A stretch of DNA of 31,994 nt from an uncultured Dehalococcoidales bacterium (GTDB lineage: Bacteria > Chloroflexota > Dehalococcoidia > Dehalococcoidales > UBA2162), in the NCBI GenBank assembly GCA_964403625.1, contig CAYOHA010000001.1, positions 1-31,994 of the forward strand, given 5' to 3'. The translations under genes were made by a program, and so were the position numbers. Positions 22,563 to 28,636 of the stretch are shown piece by piece (the first letter of the stretch is position 1; every line of letters starts with the position of its first letter). The notes below the pieces were generated by a model. It was not told the origin of the DNA. It was given only the letters and a program-made list of their open reading frames with translations, and made no database searches.

Positions 22563-23129
22563 ATGAGATACTATTGCTTCATGAATACACCCCCAAAAAC
22601 AGGTGCTAATGATTCTCGCCATCTCGCCACCGTTCAGTATATCGATAATACGGGGAGGTTCCCGCGGGTTAGATTATTCTTCAGGCTGCTTACCTTTGCT
22701 GATACTCTTAATAAATATGCCGGCATAGAAGTAAGGGAAAAAGGTGATAACCGTACCGGACTAGCTGTTTTGCAGATTTTACTCAAATATCCGGATGGTA
22801 TCTCTCAGCAAGAGATAGCCAAGCAAACGGGTAGAACCAAGCAGGCAATTGTGATGGCGATTAACAAACTTGAGCAGCAAAACTACCTTCAAAGACGTTC
22901 GAATAGCTACGATAGAAGGATGAATTCCATTATTATTACCCAAGAGGGGATTGATCATCTCAACGAAGTGTTCCCCCACACTCTGGCCATGTGTGATAGT
23001 GTTTTATCATCTTTTAGTGATGAAGAAATCGATCAATTCATCACCCTCAGTGGAAAATTGACGAAACGGCTGTGGCAGCAGATCGAAGCTGAATCATCGG
23101 AATTTGAACAGCGTGTAGAAGAGGAATAA
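22563..23129 (+). CDS. MarR-family winged-helix regulator (start may be 22581 or later)
   Basis: 'GISQQEIAKQTGRTKQAIVMAINKLEQQNYLQR....DRR...I.IT..G'. Divergent from the molybdoenzyme operon. Confidence 0.9.
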   Translation: MRYYCFMNTPPKTGANDSRHLATVQYIDNTGRFPRVRLFFRLLTFADTLNKYAGIEVREKGDNRTGLAVLQILLKYPDGISQQEIAKQTGRTKQAIVMAINKLEQQNYLQRRSNSYDRRMNSIIITQEGIDHLNEVFPHTLAMCDSVLSSFSDEEIDQFITLSGKLTKRLWQQIEAESSEFEQRVEEE

Positions 23130-24044
23130 CCGAATATTCCCGTGCCCACCATCATGCCGGACTGTGCTTAAGATGAAGGGAAAAGGGGCAGGGTTCAGGC
23201 AGGTGGTGCAGGTTATATCAATTGTCTCCCCTTCTAGAAGTAGGCCTATATCTGATGCGCTGAGATCAACAGAGAGTCCGCGGCCGCACCTGTCGCAAGC
23301 GAAACGCCATGTACCTTGTAGTTCCTTCAGCGAATCCTTAAGGCCAGCCGCAAGTGCCCTTGCCTTGGAGCCGGCGTATTCTTTCCACTGCCCATCTTTC
23401 ATTAGTTCGAGGCGTTTTTCGGCCCCTGCCTGTACTCTCCTCTCAAATTCAGCGGTCACGCGGTGGTTTACCAGTGCATTAACCTCCTTAAGGTAGTAGT
23501 TCTTGAACCAGTCTGGCCACTGATCCCTAGCACCCAACATGGCATCTGCAACTTGCCTTGCGCTGGAATCAATGACCTTTGCTATCTCAGGGGGCCACTC
23601 AGAACCGTTAAGTACTTGTATCAGGCTCTCGTGAACCAGAGTCGGCATTCGGCTTCGCATATCCTTTTCTAGTGCTGCCAGGCATTCTTTTACCCTTCTC
23701 TCAATCTCGCCTTCCTCGGCATGGAGGAATTGGTCTCTTATCTCCTCCAAGGAGAGGTCGCCGCTGTCAGGAAAATTCACTTTAAATTCCTTTAGCGACA
23801 ACAGCTCCTTCTGGGCGTCATCGAGCCTACTGGCCAGCTCCCTAACCTCGCCCTCGCTTTTCGTGAGGCGTGAAGAAAGCTCGTTGTTCGTAGAAACTTC
23901 GCTTCCCAGTTCGGCTATCTTTTTCTTCAGCTGGGCTACTTCTGTTGCCAGACAATCCCTTTCCCGCTTGACCCGAGAGTAACGCCTCAGTGCCTCGAGT
24001 TCCTTTACGTACTTTTCCAGAACTTTAAATTCGTCCTTTATCAC
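23094..24044 (-). CDS. Hypothetical coiled-coil protein with C-terminal CxxC..CxxC zinc ribbon; tail probably junction-derived
   Basis: Heptad-rich N-terminus, CDRC...CTTC, and GGAGGTGA SD before GTG 24044. The 3' end runs 36 bp antisense into marR across the repeat at 23138-23165. Confidence 0.7.
   Translation of the reverse strand: MIKDEFKVLEKYVKELEALRRYSRVKRERDCLATEVAQLKKKIAELGSEVSTNNELSSRLTKSEGEVRELASRLDDAQKELLSLKEFKVNFPDSGDLSLEEIRDQFLHAEEGEIERRVKECLAALEKDMRSRMPTLVHESLIQVLNGSEWPPEIAKVIDSSARQVADAMLGARDQWPDWFKNYYLKEVNALVNHRVTAEFERRVQAGAEKRLELMKDGQWKEYAGSKARALAAGLKDSLKELQGTWRFACDRCGRGLSVDLSASDIGLLLEGETIDITCTTCLNPAPFPFILSTVRHDGGHGNIRLFLFYTLFKFR
23138..23165 (+). repeat. Imperfect direct repeat of the tRNA-Val 3' end/att junction (26973-27000)
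   Basis: 20/28 ungapped identities. Also shares the exact 9-mer gcccaccat (23144-23152 and 26982-26990) on a diagonal shifted by 3 nt. Confidence 0.5.
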
Positions 24045-25722
24045 TACTCACCTCCCCGACGAGCATCAGCAACGCCCAGATGAAGACATCTGCAAGCTCC
24101 ACCTCGGTGTATTCACCAATACTGTAGTATTTCTTGGTAATCTCCCGGGGCGGTCTCAGCTTCGGGTTGAGATTCTTACGGCACCAGGCGAGGCCTATCA
24201 TCAGATATTGCACCACGACCTGGAGACTTAAATCAGCCACCAGGCTGGAGATGGCCTCTTCGCTCAGGGGCAGTTTGACAAAATAGCGGGTGAACTTTAG
24301 CTCCTCTTCCAATTTACCCATCTCCGCCTGCGTATCACCCCACTTCCTGATGTCATCGTGGAGGCCACGACACAGCTTCTTTACCTCAGCCACTGCTGAA
24401 CTCCTCATGCTGTTGATCTGCTTAACTCCTGAATCCCTGAGGGAAGTGATTGACTGCCTTACTTTAGCCAGCTCACCCTGAAGCTCTCTAAGTGCTTGCA
24501 CCTTTTCCCCTAGCTCTTGTGCTACCCTGTCGAGTTCAGCCCTTCTTGCTGTTAGTGCCTTCTCAACACTGCTGAAATCCGCGACTACTTCTTCGAATGA
24601 TTCAGGAGCAACCCCAGCCGCGGTAAGCATTCTCTCATAGGAGACTATTGTCGGCGGTAAAACGCCCTTACGTCGCAGAGATTTTATCGCCGCTATTCCT
24701 TCAGCGATCTGTTCTGAGGTCAGCCCCAGCTTTTGAGCGAGCCCGGCTAGCGATTCCCTCTCTACCGTCAGGCTCTTGACTTCTTCGGAACGTTTTCCCT
24801 TGGTCGCCTCCATTCCAATGACGGCCTCATAGGTTTCGAGATATCCAAAGAATCTATTGACAGCCTCCCCTGTACCGTGCTTCTGCGCTATCTCACTCAG
24901 GCGGTCTCTTAGCCGGTTTAATTGATCCCGTGGAAAACCAATCTCATCCAGACCCCTTAGCGTCTCAGTCTTGTCGGCAACTTGCTTTTCCAGAGTCATC
25001 ATTCTTTCCTGAAGCTGGCTGGTTTCCTCTTTGAGCTTGCTCTTCTCGGTTTCAAGTTGAGCCATCTCCTCCTGGCACTGCTTGACTTGCTCCCCCAACT
25101 CTTGGATGCGATCCTCCTGCTCCTTTTCTTTCACTGCCATGGCATTCAGCCTGCCTTGAAGCCTGACAGACTCTGCTTCAAGGCGGTGGTTTGCTTGAGT
25201 GAGTTCCTCTCCCCTTCCGTGAAGTTTGGTCTCCTCAGCTCTCAGCTCTGCTAGCTCTACCCTCAGCCTCTCTAGCTCGGCAGAGGAGGTCCTGAGGCTT
25301 TCTAAGGTCTGCTCATAGCTAAGACCTTCTTTTTCCAACTTTGACAGTTTGCTTGCCGCCTGGATGATCTGGCTGCGGGAAAATTCTTCCTCGGGAACTG
25401 CTCGGCACATTCTTATCCATGATTCAAGATACGCTGGTTCTACACCCAGCCCGATGAGTTTCTTTAACAAGATGAAGAGGGAAGCAGCTTCAATGATAGT
25501 AATGCCTGCCTTGCGGAGACCAACCGTCAGTTCTCTGAGCTCGTTCACCAAATCAGTCACCTGTTCAAACTGGGGGAATTCTCCGACTCTGAGCGCCTCT
25601 ACTACTGCTGCCACACTTCCTTTTGCTACGCCTGTTTTCTCGGCGATATCATCGTAGGAAAAACCTTCGAAGTAGAGTTTTACCACCTCAAGCTTTCTGT
25701 CTAGAGTTATCTCCCTGCTCAC
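24025..25722 (-). CDS. Hypothetical protein: N-terminal HTH plus long coiled coil
   Basis: 'RKLEVVKLYFEGFSYDDIAEKTGVAKGSV' HTH and an extended Glu/Lys/Leu heptad region. AGGAGG lies 8 nt before GTG 25722 (the ORF track starts at 25740). Confidence 0.75.
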   Translation of the reverse strand: MSREITLDRKLEVVKLYFEGFSYDDIAEKTGVAKGSVAAVVEALRVGEFPQFEQVTDLVNELRELTVGLRKAGITIIEAASLFILLKKLIGLGVEPAYLESWIRMCRAVPEEEFSRSQIIQAASKLSKLEKEGLSYEQTLESLRTSSAELERLRVELAELRAEETKLHGRGEELTQANHRLEAESVRLQGRLNAMAVKEKEQEDRIQELGEQVKQCQEEMAQLETEKSKLKEETSQLQERMMTLEKQVADKTETLRGLDEIGFPRDQLNRLRDRLSEIAQKHGTGEAVNRFFGYLETYEAVIGMEATKGKRSEEVKSLTVERESLAGLAQKLGLTSEQIAEGIAAIKSLRRKGVLPPTIVSYERMLTAAGVAPESFEEVVADFSSVEKALTARRAELDRVAQELGEKVQALRELQGELAKVRQSITSLRDSGVKQINSMRSSAVAEVKKLCRGLHDDIRKWGDTQAEMGKLEEELKFTRYFVKLPLSEEAISSLVADLSLQVVVQYLMIGLAWCRKNLNPKLRPPREITKKYYSIGEYTEVELADVFIWALLMLVGEVSSDKGRI

Positions 25723-25816
25723 TGTTCTTGCCTCCTTCACCGCCTACGGTTTTACTCGGTCTGCTAGTCAAGCTAGCTGCCTAACTGAATGAACAACTGA
25801 ACAAAGTTTTGAACAT

Positions 25817-26752
25817 CTAGGTACTCCTAAGTTCTATCGTATTAGTCTCTTTCTCAATTACGCTATTATTTCGCTTCCCCCTTCTATACGCCAGTTTGAA
25901 GTCCATATTGTCTGCCGGAGAATAGCGACGGTGTGCCTCTTGAATACCACTTTGAGCCATGTTTACATAGATTCGAAGGACATCTAGTGTGGAATGCCCC
26001 ATCATCCTTTGGAGACTGAAGACATCGCCGCCGTTTCTTAAAAACCTGACGGCAGCAGAATGACGTAAAGTATGAGGTGAGCACCTGACTCCTTCTATCC
26101 CAGCTTTCCTGCCGTAATAGGTCATAATCTTCTCCGCCCTATCTTTGGTTAGCGGCCTACCATCCTTGGTGAGGAAGAGGAAGTCGTATTTAGCCATCGC
26201 TGGTTCGGGACGGCATCGGTTAATGTAGCGCCAGAGGAGGCGCTGAACTTGCTTACCTATCGGAATAAGGCGCTCCTTATTACCTTTACCTACAACCTTC
26301 AGCATACCCTCATCCAACCAGAGATTGCCAAGCTTTAGATTACAGAGTTCAGATATCCTAAGGGCCGTATCAAGCAAGGTCAGAATGATGATATAGTCTC
26401 GGTATCCCTCAGCGGTTCTAGTATCTATGGCATTGAGTAACCCCTGGAACTGGGAGTCGGAGAAGGCAGGTATAACCTTTCCTGGTGGTCGTGGAATTTT
26501 CACTCGTTCAAAGGGGTTACACTCTATGATATTTTCGGAGACAAGCCATGATAAAAAGATCCTGAGACTGCGGAGGTAACAGTTAATGGTATACCCCGAA
26601 AGCCCTCTATCCTGGGTATGGTTGAAACGGTGGCCGGAGAAGCACATCTTCTGTTGTAGATAGAGGATGAATGCTCTAATCTGGTGCTGAGTAATCTGAG
26701 TTGCATCGGTGCTTATTCCCTGTGAAGCAAGGAAATCGAGAAAGTAATGCAC
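25817..26752 (-). CDS. Tyrosine recombinase/integrase (XerC/D-like fold); coding frame extends upstream without a canonical start
   Basis: Complete catalytic set: DTALRISEL (R), GKGNKER (K), HTLRH, MMGH, RIY (Y). SAM-like N-terminal domain. Confidence 0.92.
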   Translation of the reverse strand: MHYFLDFLASQGISTDATQITQHQIRAFILYLQQKMCFSGHRFNHTQDRGLSGYTINCYLRSLRIFLSWLVSENIIECNPFERVKIPRPPGKVIPAFSDSQFQGLLNAIDTRTAEGYRDYIIILTLLDTALRISELCNLKLGNLWLDEGMLKVVGKGNKERLIPIGKQVQRLLWRYINRCRPEPAMAKYDFLFLTKDGRPLTKDRAEKIMTYYGRKAGIEGVRCSPHTLRHSAAVRFLRNGGDVFSLQRMMGHSTLDVLRIYVNMAQSGIQEAHRRYSPADNMDFKLAYRRGKRNNSVIEKETNTIELRST

Positions 26753-26872
26753 GCTATTAGTGACAATAGCGATAGCATTAGGGCTCTTTCCTTCAGTAGC
26801 AGCACAAAGCTGATAGCCCTGAAGCAGGCCTCTTATGTCGGTGTAAAAATTTAACGAAGCAAGAGGTCTACC

Positions 26873-26901
26873 TTTACAAAGCTGATTTTTGGGGGTAAAA
26901 T
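26873..26901 (+). promoter_or_regulatory. Sigma70 promoter for tRNA-Val
   Basis: TTTACA-17-TAAAAT, ending 12 nt before the tRNA 5' end. Confidence 0.7.
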
Positions 26902-26913
26902 AGATATGATTTC

Positions 26914-26989
26914 GGGCGGTTAGCTCAGTGGTTGGAGCGCTTGCTTCACACGCAAGAGGTCACAGGTTCAAGTCCTGTACCGCCCACCA
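26914..26989 (+). tRNA. trnV: tRNA-Val(CAC), CCA encoded
   Basis: Acceptor stem GGGCGGT/ACCGCCC, D-arm GCTC/GAGC, anticodon stem CTTGC/GCAAG with loop TTCACAC, T-arm ACAGG-TTCAAGT-CCTGT, ACCA end. 76 nt. Confidence 0.97.
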
Positions 26990-27774
26990 TACCGTACAGT
27001 AGGCAGAACTCCCAATCCTTCTTCCTCCTGGTCGTCCGGAAGTATCGGAAACGTGTATTTAATTCGCCCCTCATTCCCCGTGACCTTGATTTCCTTTACG
27101 AAGCTCTTGATAAATGCTTTCCTTTCCAGCAGGTCGCTGGTATCGATGAACTGATGCAAATCTTCAACGTATTTTCGTACCACCTCCGGACTTACTAACT
27201 CAATCTTATGTTGAGACATAAGACCATCAAGTTCGGATTTCCGTGTTAGCAACCGGTCATGCTGCACTCTTAGCTCCTGCAGACGCGGTTTTAGCAAATG
27301 AAATTCGATATTACCGTTCTCAATGGCATTGTAAAGATTACCCAACCGCTGTTCTACTCTGCCAATCTCACTGATAATGGTATCCATCTCATCCCTGAAT
27401 GAGCTTGAAGCAGCGTCCATCTCCTCATTAATTAAGTCGACCAGTTCGGACAAGTTCCCCGGGGTGAGAATATGTTCCTTGATTTTCGAGATCACCAGCC
27501 GCTCGAATTTAACACTGTTGAGGTAAGGAGTAGAGCACGCCCCTGCTCCCTTCTTCGTCAATGAGCCGCAAATATAGTATGAATACTTACCGCTTTTAGC
27601 ATCCAGCCCTATCAGTGCCTTACCGCAACAGCCGCACCAGGTTAGACCACTCAACAGAAATCTACTGGTTGCCCGTCTCGGATGCTGCTTCTTCGGCGCC
27701 CGATCTCCCATAAGTTCTTGTGTTTTATTAAAGACCTCCTTGCTGATAAGTGCCGGAAATACGTTTTCAACTCT
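26968..27774 (-). pseudogene. Large serine recombinase, C-terminal remnant (end of recombinase domain, Zn ribbon, coiled coil); catalytic N-terminus missing
   Basis: RVENVFPALISKEVF..Q, then LLSGLTWCGCCG...YYICG....AC, then coiled coil. An in-frame TAA at 27777-27775 caps the 5' end. The stop codon lies in the tRNA T-loop. Confidence 0.85.
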
Positions 27775-28162: not shown

Positions 28163-28636
28163 CACACTCACGTTTAACTGCTATTACACGTGAATTAAAT
28201 CTGGCGTATAATCCATGTTATACGCATTTATTCACAGGTTGATTATCCAACTACCTATTTGATAGCGAGGTTTGAACAATAAGTCATAAGGTAAAATTTC
28301 AAGAACTAGCTCGTTTATCACCATCCCCGAGGCAAGGAATTAAAATAAAAGTCTTTTTATCCAGCTAACATATCCTATAAAGACTTATTCTCTTGTTTTT
28401 CCACTTCTTAATGGACTATAATCAGGTACGTCCTCATAGTTCCCCGGGTTATCGGCCACCCGCTCCTGAGGTTAGAATGCTGGTAACTCTAACTTAACAA
28501 GTGGTATCCCTTCAGGGGGCAGGTCAAGTGTAACAAATACTGCGAGCAAGGCAGTAATACATGTAAAACCCATTAGTAACTCCACAAGGGAAAACTTAAA
28601 CCAGTTTTAGGAAATAGAAAACCAGGGGGCATAGTT

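What the first reader, a model, noticed from the sequence alone, without database searches (positions are those of the whole stretch)
25817..26962. Tyrosine integrase without a start for its N-terminus: frame open antisense through the tRNA promoter and 5' half
Seen: upstream of GTG 26752 the frame stays open for 69 codons to a TGA at 26962-26960 inside the tRNA, with no ATG, GTG or TTG. It encodes ..SLNFYTDIRGLLQGYQLCAATEGKSPNAIAIVTNS, which reads like the first helices of an integrase core-binding domain. The GTG has no clear SD. The gene sits on the 5' side of the tRNA pointing away, and its upstream region is the tRNA promoter. Known: most tRNA-targeting elements restore the 3' end, and SSV1-type archaeal integrases are split by their own integration. 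Inference: an element that integrates at the tRNA 5' end, supplies a new tRNA promoter, and gains its integrase start codon only in the excised circle. That would be an integration-coupled off switch. A non-canonical start is the alternative.
Basis: partly seen in the sequence, partly recalled or inferred. Interest (0 to 1): 0.75.

Follow-up and report, generated by a model that had tools for sequence, protein, structure and literature searches.

The report
Start-less integrase beside tRNA-Val promoter
A mobile-element integrase gene sits back to back with a tRNA-Val gene and has no normal start codon; several relatives in Dehalococcoidia-type bacteria share this, but nothing I found shows that the missing start is supplied when the element excises.

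Summary
On the minus strand the integrase frame is open for 69 codons upstream of GTG 26752, back to a TGA inside tRNA-Val(CAC). Those codons contain no ATG, GTG or TTG. The last ~36 of them are real coding sequence under purifying selection and encode the first helices of the core-binding domain.

This is not local decay. In 18 related loci with the same layout (19 counting L009) the integrase lies divergent from the 5' end of tRNA-Val(CAC), tRNA-Gly(CCC) or tRNA-Gly(UCC), pressed against the -35 box. The start codon is not conserved. Relatives use ATG, GTG or TTG at four different positions. Five type-D loci, including the window and its closest relative, have no canonical start.

Other loci show an empty tRNA-Val site, tRNA 5' fragments (nt 1-47/48) joined to foreign DNA, and integrase blocks joined to non-tRNA DNA at nt 47. 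This fits a rare 5'-side tRNA integration in which the element carries the promoter and 5' part.

The proposed off switch is not supported. The two joined-configuration loci supply no start, most integrated relatives have a start, and no database protein links the antisense-tRNA peptide to an integrase. The window copy is a truncated remnant with a hybrid integrase. Translation, if any, probably starts at AUA 26836 or CUG 26827.

The parts
26914..26989 (+). Intact tRNA-Val(CAC) gene
   Evidence: ARAGORN; Rfam RF00005, 72.2 bits.
26873..26901 (+). tRNA promoter: -35 TTTACA, 17-nt spacer, -10 TAAAAT, followed by the discriminator AGATATGATTTC. The integrase frame runs antisense through it.
   Evidence: Promoter scan, 10/12 matches. 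The same promoter stands before an integrase-free tRNA-Val in L260 and before integrase-linked tRNA-Val and tRNA-Gly genes.
26852..26868 (-). 'Site B': GACCTCTTGC-TTCGTTA. It is a copy of the tRNA variable-loop plus anticodon-stem half-site, followed by TTCG. It is a likely integrase binding site or recombination junction and overlaps codons R-P-L-A-S-L.
   Evidence: 10-nt direct repeat of 26961-26952. Present next to every family integrase and co-varies with the local tRNA (L002, L008, L006, L012).
26952..26961 (+). tRNA copy of the half-site (anticodon-stem 3' strand plus variable loop, GCAAGAGGTC). Related loci break at tRNA nt 47/48, just 3' of it.
25817..26836 (-). Tyrosine integrase coding region as I would annotate it: from near-cognate AUA 26836-26834 (alternative CUG 26827-26825) to stop 25819-25817. 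The first canonical start is GTG 26752. The 3' ~300 nt are 'int2'-like, so the gene is an int1/int2 hybrid.
   Evidence: Pfam PF00589, 8e-36, plus SAM-like domains. Catalytic R, K, HxxR, H and Y are invariant in A1. dN/dS 0.06-0.14. Codon table. Hybrid structure.
26837..26959 (-). Open but probably untranslated extension of the frame through site B, the tRNA promoter and tRNA nt 46-1.
   Evidence: Only one antisense frame of the tRNA 5' half is free of stops. L009 and L012 break the continuity.
23094..25740 (-). Two element genes that travel with 'int2' in relatives: a 571-aa HTH plus coiled-coil protein and a 316-aa protein. Homology to intact elements stops near 23151, so the element is truncated.
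   Evidence: tblastx against L244/L246, 72-80%. Pfam. A MarR-type reading and a Mo-enzyme follow.
26968..27711 (-). C-terminal fragment of a large serine recombinase. Its stop lies inside the tRNA 3' end. It is a remnant of a different element on the 3' side of the same tRNA.
   Evidence: PF13408; phrog_95. The same overlap occurs in L001 and L248.

Best explanation
The window holds the integrase-proximal junction of a degraded integrative element. The element belongs to a Dehalococcoidia/Chloroflexota family of XerD-like tyrosine recombinases that recombine in the anticodon-arm/variable-loop region of tRNA-Val(CAC) or tRNA-Gly genes and lie on the 5' side of the tRNA. In this reading the element brings its own copy of the tRNA promoter and tRNA nt 1-47. 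After integration the tRNA is rebuilt back to back with the integrase gene, and the integrase 5' end (with an extra half-site, 'site B') is jammed against the -35 box. That leaves no room for a normal ribosome-binding region, and the start codon drifts among relatives. The protein begins a few codons before the core-binding domain. Relatives there have ATG (codon -6), TTG (codon -3), or GTG/ATG (codons -14 to -18). The window has only AUA (26836) and CUG (26827), which would give very weak translation or none. The open frame through the promoter and tRNA is incidental. Shown: the layout, the conservation, the coding constraint, the breakpoints and the remnant status. Inferred: the direction of integration, supply of the promoter by the element, and the codon actually used as start.
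For: The divergent tRNA-integrase layout occurs in the window and in L001, L002/3, L005-L008, L010, L011, L013-L016, L244-L248, L250/1 and L259, with three tRNA species. The frame and start table covers 18 loci. Purifying selection acts on the gene body and on the 36 codons upstream of the GTG, including between the two start-less copies WIN and L004. The empty site L260 has the same promoter and no integrase. Displaced fragments of promoter plus tRNA nt 1-46/48 lie next to integrases that have SD+ATG (L249, L252/3, L254). L254 has a different, native-looking promoter. The block integrase + site B + promoter + tRNA nt 47-1 is joined to non-tRNA DNA in L004 and L009. Site B co-varies with the tRNA. 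The window element is a truncated hybrid. AUA and CUG initiate at about 1-2% of AUG in E. coli (bioRxiv 10.1101/063800). 5'-side tRNA integration is a known rare class (PMC6563490).
Against: No complete element with both junctions was recovered, and no distal tRNA fragment lies within 8-10 kb in any locus. The promoter type is also the native tRNA-Val promoter (L260), so supply of the promoter by the element rests mainly on L004 and L009. Class A, the codirectional locus L012 and the solo modules (L255, L261) show that the region rearranges in ways I could not order into one scheme. No good SD precedes AUA or CUG in the window. AUU and AUC would be equally good near-cognate starts, so the strict conservation of ATA may reflect a DNA signal rather than a start codon.
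Confidence: 0.55

Rival explanations
1. Split ('suicidal'-type) integrase. The att core lies inside the integrase ORF. The start codon and N-terminal codons sit at the other end of the element and join in frame only in the excised circle, so integration switches the integrase off.
For: No conserved start. The frame is open from the integrase back to tRNA nt 46 in all type-D loci. The in-frame TGA sits exactly at the nt 47-49 boundary where related junctions break. Solo or attL-like modules (L255-258, L261) carry SD+ATG ORFs that enter the antisense tRNA fragment in the same frame.
Against: That frame is the only stop-free antisense frame of the tRNA 5' half, and those ORFs were found by searching with that peptide, so there is ascertainment bias. 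L004 and L009, the actual joined configurations, supply no start. 13 of 18 integrated copies have canonical starts. Class A relatives have their own SD+ATG. None of 5.8e9 proteins joins the peptide to an integrase. There is no PF16795 domain. The core-binding domain is complete from LLQGY onward. Suicidal integrases are reported only from Archaea (PMC8371274).
Confidence: 0.1
2. Dead remnant. The window copy is simply a pseudogene that has lost its start, sitting in a truncated element, and it is no longer translated.
For: The element is truncated at about 23151. The integrase is an int1/int2 deletion hybrid. No distal att lies in the window. In L001 and L002 an ATG stands where the window has GGT (KMGA versus KGRP).
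Against: The 339-codon frame has no frameshift or internal stop. dN/dS against the equally start-less L004 is 0.14 at dS 0.27. The start-less state is shared by L004, L006, L007 and L013, so it is not a private lesion.
Confidence: 0.2
3. Invertible switch. The integrase inverts the ~70-90 bp segment (tRNA 5' half plus promoter) between the anticodon arm and site B, toggling the promoter between the tRNA and the integrase, in the manner of FimB/FimE.
For: Perfect 11-13-nt inverted repeats between the tRNA and site B that co-vary in L001, L002 and L008. Class A loci have promoter plus tRNA 5' part codirectional with the integrase.
Against: In the window and most tRNA-Val loci site B is a direct repeat, not an inverted one. 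The segment is very short for synapsis. Class A has an extra 95-nt segment and tRNA up to nt 48, which is not the expected inversion product. No pair of contigs shows both orientations in one host.
Confidence: 0.05

Closest known systems
5'-side ('reverse orientation') tRNA-integrating elements (Zhao & Williams 2002, J Bacteriol 184:859; archaeal cases listed in PMC6563490)
   Same: The element and its integrase lie on the 5' side of the target tRNA. The 5' part, and by necessity a promoter, must be replaced by the element. Displaced 5' fragments are seen in related loci.
   Different: Here it is a whole clade in Chloroflexota that uses three tRNAs. The integrase 5' end overlaps an extra half-site and touches the -35 box. 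The start codon is not conserved. I could not read the 2002 paper (not held); its content is from memory and from the citation in PMC6563490.
SSV1/pTN3/pT26-2 'suicidal' integrases of Archaea (PMC8371274)
   Same: tRNA-derived sequence lies in frame with the integrase ORF. An int(C)-like gene without its own start sits next to a tRNA promoter. [quoted passage not shown]
   Different: No int(N) was found. The joined configurations give no start. A different Pfam domain is present (PF00589 plus SAM-like, not PF16795). The host is bacterial, and most integrated copies have starts.
XerD/XerC/XerA simple tyrosine recombinases
   Same: They are the best sequence matches to solved structures (1a0p at 1e-30, 4a8e). 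The two-domain architecture has no arm-binding N domain, and the N-terminus has a similar length if translation starts at codon -6.
   Different: The gene is linked to tRNA genes and to mobile gene sets (int2, int3, a DnaN-like gene), occurs in many contexts, and is not dif-associated as far as can be seen.
ICEclc-type control, where a promoter from the far end drives int only in the circular form
   Same: Integrase expression could depend on what lies across the att site, because no promoter is detectable upstream in the integrated state.
   Different: This is only an analogy recalled from memory. There are no data here on transcription.

Membership tests
Tyrosine recombinase / phage integrase (PF00589) | Catalytic domain with R, K, HxxR, H/W and Y | tested here: met
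   PF00589 at 8e-36. R201, K225, H296, R299, H322 and Y331 are invariant in the 30-sequence alignment A1. XerD match at 1e-30.
Tyrosine recombinase / phage integrase (PF00589) | N-terminal SAM-like core-binding domain | tested here: met
   PF13102 at 1.4e-6, plus weaker PF13495 and PF02899 matches, all starting upstream of GTG 26752. Alignment to XerA from query residue 39.
Suicidal (SSV-type) integrase | att core inside the translated integrase ORF, so that integration splits the gene into int(N) and int(C) | tested here: not met
   No int(N) lies in the window or within 10 kb in relatives. L004 and L009 give no start. No fused protein exists in the database.
Suicidal (SSV-type) integrase | Phage_integr_3 domain (PF16795), according to PMC8371274 | tested here: not met
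   The Pfam scan at E<=0.01 lists only PF00589, PF13102, PF13495 and PF02899.
5'-side tRNA integrative element | Integrase and element on the 5' side of an intact target tRNA | tested here: met
   Window and all type-D loci.
5'-side tRNA integrative element | Displaced tRNA 5' fragment (with promoter) at another junction, and an element-borne 5' part | tested here: inconclusive
   Seen in related loci: class A (L249, L252-4), L255-8, L261, and the attP-like L004 and L009. Not seen in the window, and never both junctions on one contig.
5'-side tRNA integrative element | Direct repeats bounding a complete element, and an empty site in a relative | tested here: inconclusive
   An empty site was found (L260). 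A bounded complete element was not.
Invertible promoter switch (Fim-type) | Inverted repeats flanking the promoter segment next to the recombinase gene | tested here: not met
   In the window the two half-sites are direct repeats. Inverted repeats occur only in L001, L002 and L008.

The most novel reading that the evidence does not exclude
A bacterial integrase whose expression is physically coupled to the recombination state of its att site. Either an SD+ATG (as in the P0123/P0124-type ORFs that enter the antisense tRNA fragment in the integrase frame) joins the integrase only in the circular form, which would be a bacterial counterpart of the archaeal suicidal integrases. Or the integrase flips or exchanges the tRNA promoter segment between the tRNA and itself.
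Probability: 0.1. Interest if true: 0.85.

Novelty: new variant of a known kind. Interest (0 to 1): 0.5.

Why it matters
tRNA genes are the classic landing sites of mobile elements, and almost all known elements replace the 3' end. This is a widespread clade in uncultured Chloroflexota that works from the 5' side and carries a tRNA promoter. Its integrase gene stays under purifying selection without a conserved start codon. It would broaden the rules used to find genomic islands, because island finders assume 3' targeting and ATG/GTG/TTG starts. Here the gene caller shortened the window's integrase to 228 aa. The family also offers a natural case of very weak or state-dependent integrase expression. 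If the start really were supplied across the att site, it would be the first self-splitting integrase outside Archaea.

Tried and rejected
(1) Local decay only. Rejected as the sole explanation because L004, L006, L007 and L013 also lack a canonical start and selection is strong.

(2) Search for a second tRNA fragment or an N-terminal gene piece in the window and in every long locus, using blastn-short and local alignment against shuffles. Nothing exceeded chance.

(3) The genome-contig scan and the viral-contig scan with the integrase alignment returned only relatives at 41% identity or less, which are useless for this clade.

(4) 'The promoter is specific to the element.' Weakened, because the integrase-free L260 has the same promoter, although a control tRNA-Leu and the L254 fragment differ.

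(5) Linking the L004 left flank to the far ends of L244, L246 or L249 to prove a circular junction. No match.

(6) An SD for the TTG/CTG codon. AGGA or AGAGG lies only 1-3 nt upstream, which is too close to be convincing (read directly).

(7) No integrase-strand sigma-70 promoter in 26600-27300.

(8) GH130 synteny between the window and L014. The matches are only 50-60% identical, so they are probably paralogs, and I did not use them.

(9) Zhao & Williams 2002 could not be read.

Full report
1. WHAT IS IN THE WINDOW

tRNA-Val(CAC) lies at 26914..26989 on the + strand (ARAGORN; Rfam 72 bits). A sigma-70-type promoter precedes it: TTTACA, 17 nt, TAAAAT, at 26873-26901.

On the minus strand a tyrosine-recombinase frame ends at 25817. 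It is open back to TGA 26962-26960 inside the tRNA, and its first ATG/GTG/TTG is GTG 26752, after 69 codons. This is the longest start-less lead among the 19 long frames of the window. It occurs in about 0.1% of shuffles.

The pipeline's own gene call (P0051) is only 228 aa.

2. THE UPSTREAM CODONS ARE CODING

- The peptide LLQGYQLCAATEGKSPNAIAIVTNS is almost invariant in homologs that are 60-86% identical.
- Pfam SAM-like domain hits start upstream of the GTG.
- XerD and XerA are the closest solved structures. Their alignment places helix A of the core-binding domain at DIRGLLQGYQLCAATE. A GTG 26752 start would remove helices A-B.
- Nei-Gojobori counts give dN/dS of 0.06-0.14 for the gene body.
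- For the 36 codons before the GTG, pN is 0.05-0.10 in pairs among the closer tRNA-Val loci and up to 0.22 in pairs with L013 or L008. pS is 0.33-0.92.
- In the tRNA-Gly loci, indels in this stretch are multiples of three.

3. THE LAYOUT IS A FAMILY TRAIT

I fetched contigs of homologs with the look-up of encoding contigs and ran one metagenome scan. In these 'type D' loci the integrase is divergent from the 5' end of a tRNA and touches its -35 box:

- tRNA-Val(CAC): window, L001, L002/3, L005, L006, L007, L013, L014, L244-247, L248, L250/251, L259.
- tRNA-Gly(CCC): L008.
- tRNA-Gly(UCC): L010, L011, L015, L016.

Source names for homologs point to Dehalococcoidales, Dehalococcoidia and Chloroflexota MAGs.

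4. START CODONS (codon numbers count back from the G of the G-Y motif)

- ATG at -18: L001, L002.
- GTG at -14 to -17: L008 and the four Gly-UCC loci.
- ATG at -6: L244, where the protein is called MGHLLQGY.
- TTG at -3: L005, L014, L248, L250, L259, L008.
- No canonical start: window, L004, L006, L007, L013.

Codon -6 is ATA in 12 loci, ATG in 1 and CTG in 3. The -3 Leu codon runs through TTG, CTG, TTA and CTA. The start is therefore evolutionarily labile while the protein stays constrained.

In the window the only near-cognate candidates just before the domain are AUA 26836-26834 and CUG 26827-25. Such codons initiate at about 1-2% of AUG in E. coli (bioRxiv 10.1101/063800). I could not show which codon is used. 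The SD-like AGAGG is too close to the CUG. AUU and AUC would serve equally well as near-cognate starts, so the strict conservation of ATA may reflect a DNA signal instead.

5. SITE B

Codons (R)PLAS(L/S) overlap a conserved DNA motif, C(T/C)TGCTTCGTCA. The motif is preceded by 5 nt that copy one side of the local tRNA anticodon arm.

- In the window, GACCTCTTGC (26868-26859) is a direct repeat of the antisense variable loop plus anticodon stem (26961-26952).
- In L001, L002 and L008 it is an 11-13-nt inverted copy of the D-stem/anticodon-stem side.
- In L012 it is a 15-nt direct copy.
- It co-varies with the tRNA: CCTGC versus CTTGC, Val versus Gly-CCC, and the variable-loop G of L006.

In L012 the integrase (57% identity) lies downstream of an intact tRNA-Gly(CCC). 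There site B is out of frame and separated from a normal ATG by a stop. Site B is therefore a DNA site and not an obligatory coding element. I read it as an integrase half-site, either an accessory site or an old junction.

6. OTHER att-LIKE STATES

(a) Empty site. L260 has an intact tRNA-Val(CAC) with the same promoter and no site B or integrase. Similarity to type D stops at the -35 edge.

(b) 'Class A' loci (L249, L252/253, L254). A promoter plus tRNA-Val nt 1-46/48 lies codirectional with the integrase. It is followed by a ~95-nt segment with a second -10/discriminator copy and a terminator hairpin, then site B, then SD GGAGG plus ATG (protein MITxQ...). L254's fragment has a different, native-looking promoter and a diverged D-arm. 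Two contigs begin exactly at tRNA nt 1.

(c) L004 and L009. L004 is the window's closest relative (86% aa identity, dS 0.27). In both loci the block integrase + site B + promoter + tRNA nt 47-1 is joined at nt 47 to non-tRNA DNA.

(d) Solo modules (L255-258 and L261). A site-B-like half-site, 61-63 nt, then antisense tRNA nt 47-1, lying between host-like genes.

The common breakpoint at nt 47/48 and the co-travelling promoter plus 5' part argue for site-specific recombination in the anticodon-arm/variable-loop region, with the 5' part being the one duplicated. That is the rare 5'-side mode (PMC6563490). I did not recover a complete element with both ends, so the direction of integration remains an inference.

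7. THE WINDOW COPY IS A REMNANT

- Its 5' ~85% matches the 'int1' of L244 (78%).
- Its last ~300 nt and the following 571-aa and 316-aa genes are colinear with the 'int2-563-317' module of L244.
- Homology stops at about 23151. What follows reads as a MarR-type regulator (my reading) and a molybdopterin enzyme.
- L004 still has int1, two small genes and int2.
- L259 is an independent int1/int2 hybrid.

8. TEST OF THE 'START GAINED IN THE CIRCLE' IDEA

For:
- There is no conserved start.
- The frame is open to tRNA nt 46 in every type-D locus.
- The TGA lies exactly at the nt 47-49 boundary.
- In L255 and L261 an SD+ATG ORF enters the antisense tRNA fragment in the same frame.

Against:
- That frame is the only stop-free antisense frame of the tRNA 5' half, and I found those ORFs by searching with that very peptide.
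- The two loci actually in the joined configuration give no start. L004 has a stop 10 codons upstream and no start codon. L009 has a TAG at the boundary and a broken frame.
- 13 of 18 integrated copies have canonical starts.
- Class A relatives have their own SD+ATG.
- Among 5.8 billion proteins, the only hits to the antisense-tRNA peptide were 17 ORFs at E<=10, and the 11 I retrieved are 84 aa or shorter. None is joined to an integrase.
- The suicidal-integrase domain PF16795 is absent. Such integrases are reported only from Archaea (PMC8371274).

I put this model at about 0.1.

9. VERDICT

The 'integration-coupled off switch' is not supported. The most likely reading is a truncated 5'-side tRNA-Val element whose integrase has at best a near-cognate start. 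This is a new variant of a known but rare kind of tRNA integration, of moderate interest.

Noticed in passing
window 26968-27711 (-): Only the C-terminal 247 aa (zinc-ribbon plus coiled-coil part) of a large serine recombinase are present. Its stop codon lies inside the 3' end of tRNA-Val. The same overlap occurs in L001 and L248, so a second element family seems to use the 3' end of the same tRNA.
   Followed up: partly
window 28414-28497 (+): The peptide DYNQVRPHSSPGYRPPAPEV... reads like the C-terminal tail of an IS3-type transposase, with no intact gene around it. It is a remnant in the junk region between the tRNA and the GH130 genes.
   Followed up: partly
window 25817-26140 (-); L259 10331-11343; L248: The integrase is a hybrid of two paralogous integrases (int1 5' part, int2 3' end) formed by deletion of the genes between them. 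The same kind of hybrid arose independently in L259 (96% identical to L014 int2).
   Followed up: yes
window 23094-25740 (-): A 571-aa HTH plus coiled-coil protein and a 316-aa protein with no family assignment always follow int2 in L244/L246 (72-80% identity). They are a conserved module of unknown function.
   Followed up: partly
L006 ~560-856, L011 ~270-566, L016 ~600-893: A different tyrosine integrase gene lies on the 3' side of the tRNA and reads away from it. It is preceded by two direct repeats TAGGCAGGTAGTCGCC..CAGCTTTG. The same ~560-nt context stands next to both tRNA-Val and tRNA-Gly(UCC).
   Followed up: partly
L255 4537-4790 (also L256-258); L261 5355-5600: These are ~300-bp solo modules: a site-B-like half-site, 61-63 nt, then antisense tRNA-Val nt 47-1 (with or without promoter), lying between host-like genes. 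Each is spanned by a small SD+ATG ORF (P0123 on at least 24 contigs up to 498 kb; P0124). They could be scars, secondary att sites or miniature elements.
   Followed up: partly
L249 9872-9995; L252 49-172; L254 7373-7500: In class A loci a second copy of the tRNA promoter -10/discriminator points toward the integrase. It is followed by a strong terminator hairpin (CCCGGACGAAAGTCCGGG plus a T run) before site B and the SD-ATG. This may be an attenuated integrase promoter.
   Followed up: no
L260 2600-3000: At the empty tRNA-Val site a strong divergent promoter (TTGACA-17-TATAAT) drives a ~350-nt GC-rich leader before an ABC-transporter permease gene. The leader may be a riboswitch-like element. 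I did not scan it.
   Followed up: no
L246 and L249 contig ends; L252/L253 contig starts: Several assemblies break just after a 159/167-aa gene about 8-10 kb downstream of the integrase, or exactly at tRNA nt 1. That is what a repeated tRNA 5' segment, or tail-to-tail element copies, would cause.
   Followed up: no
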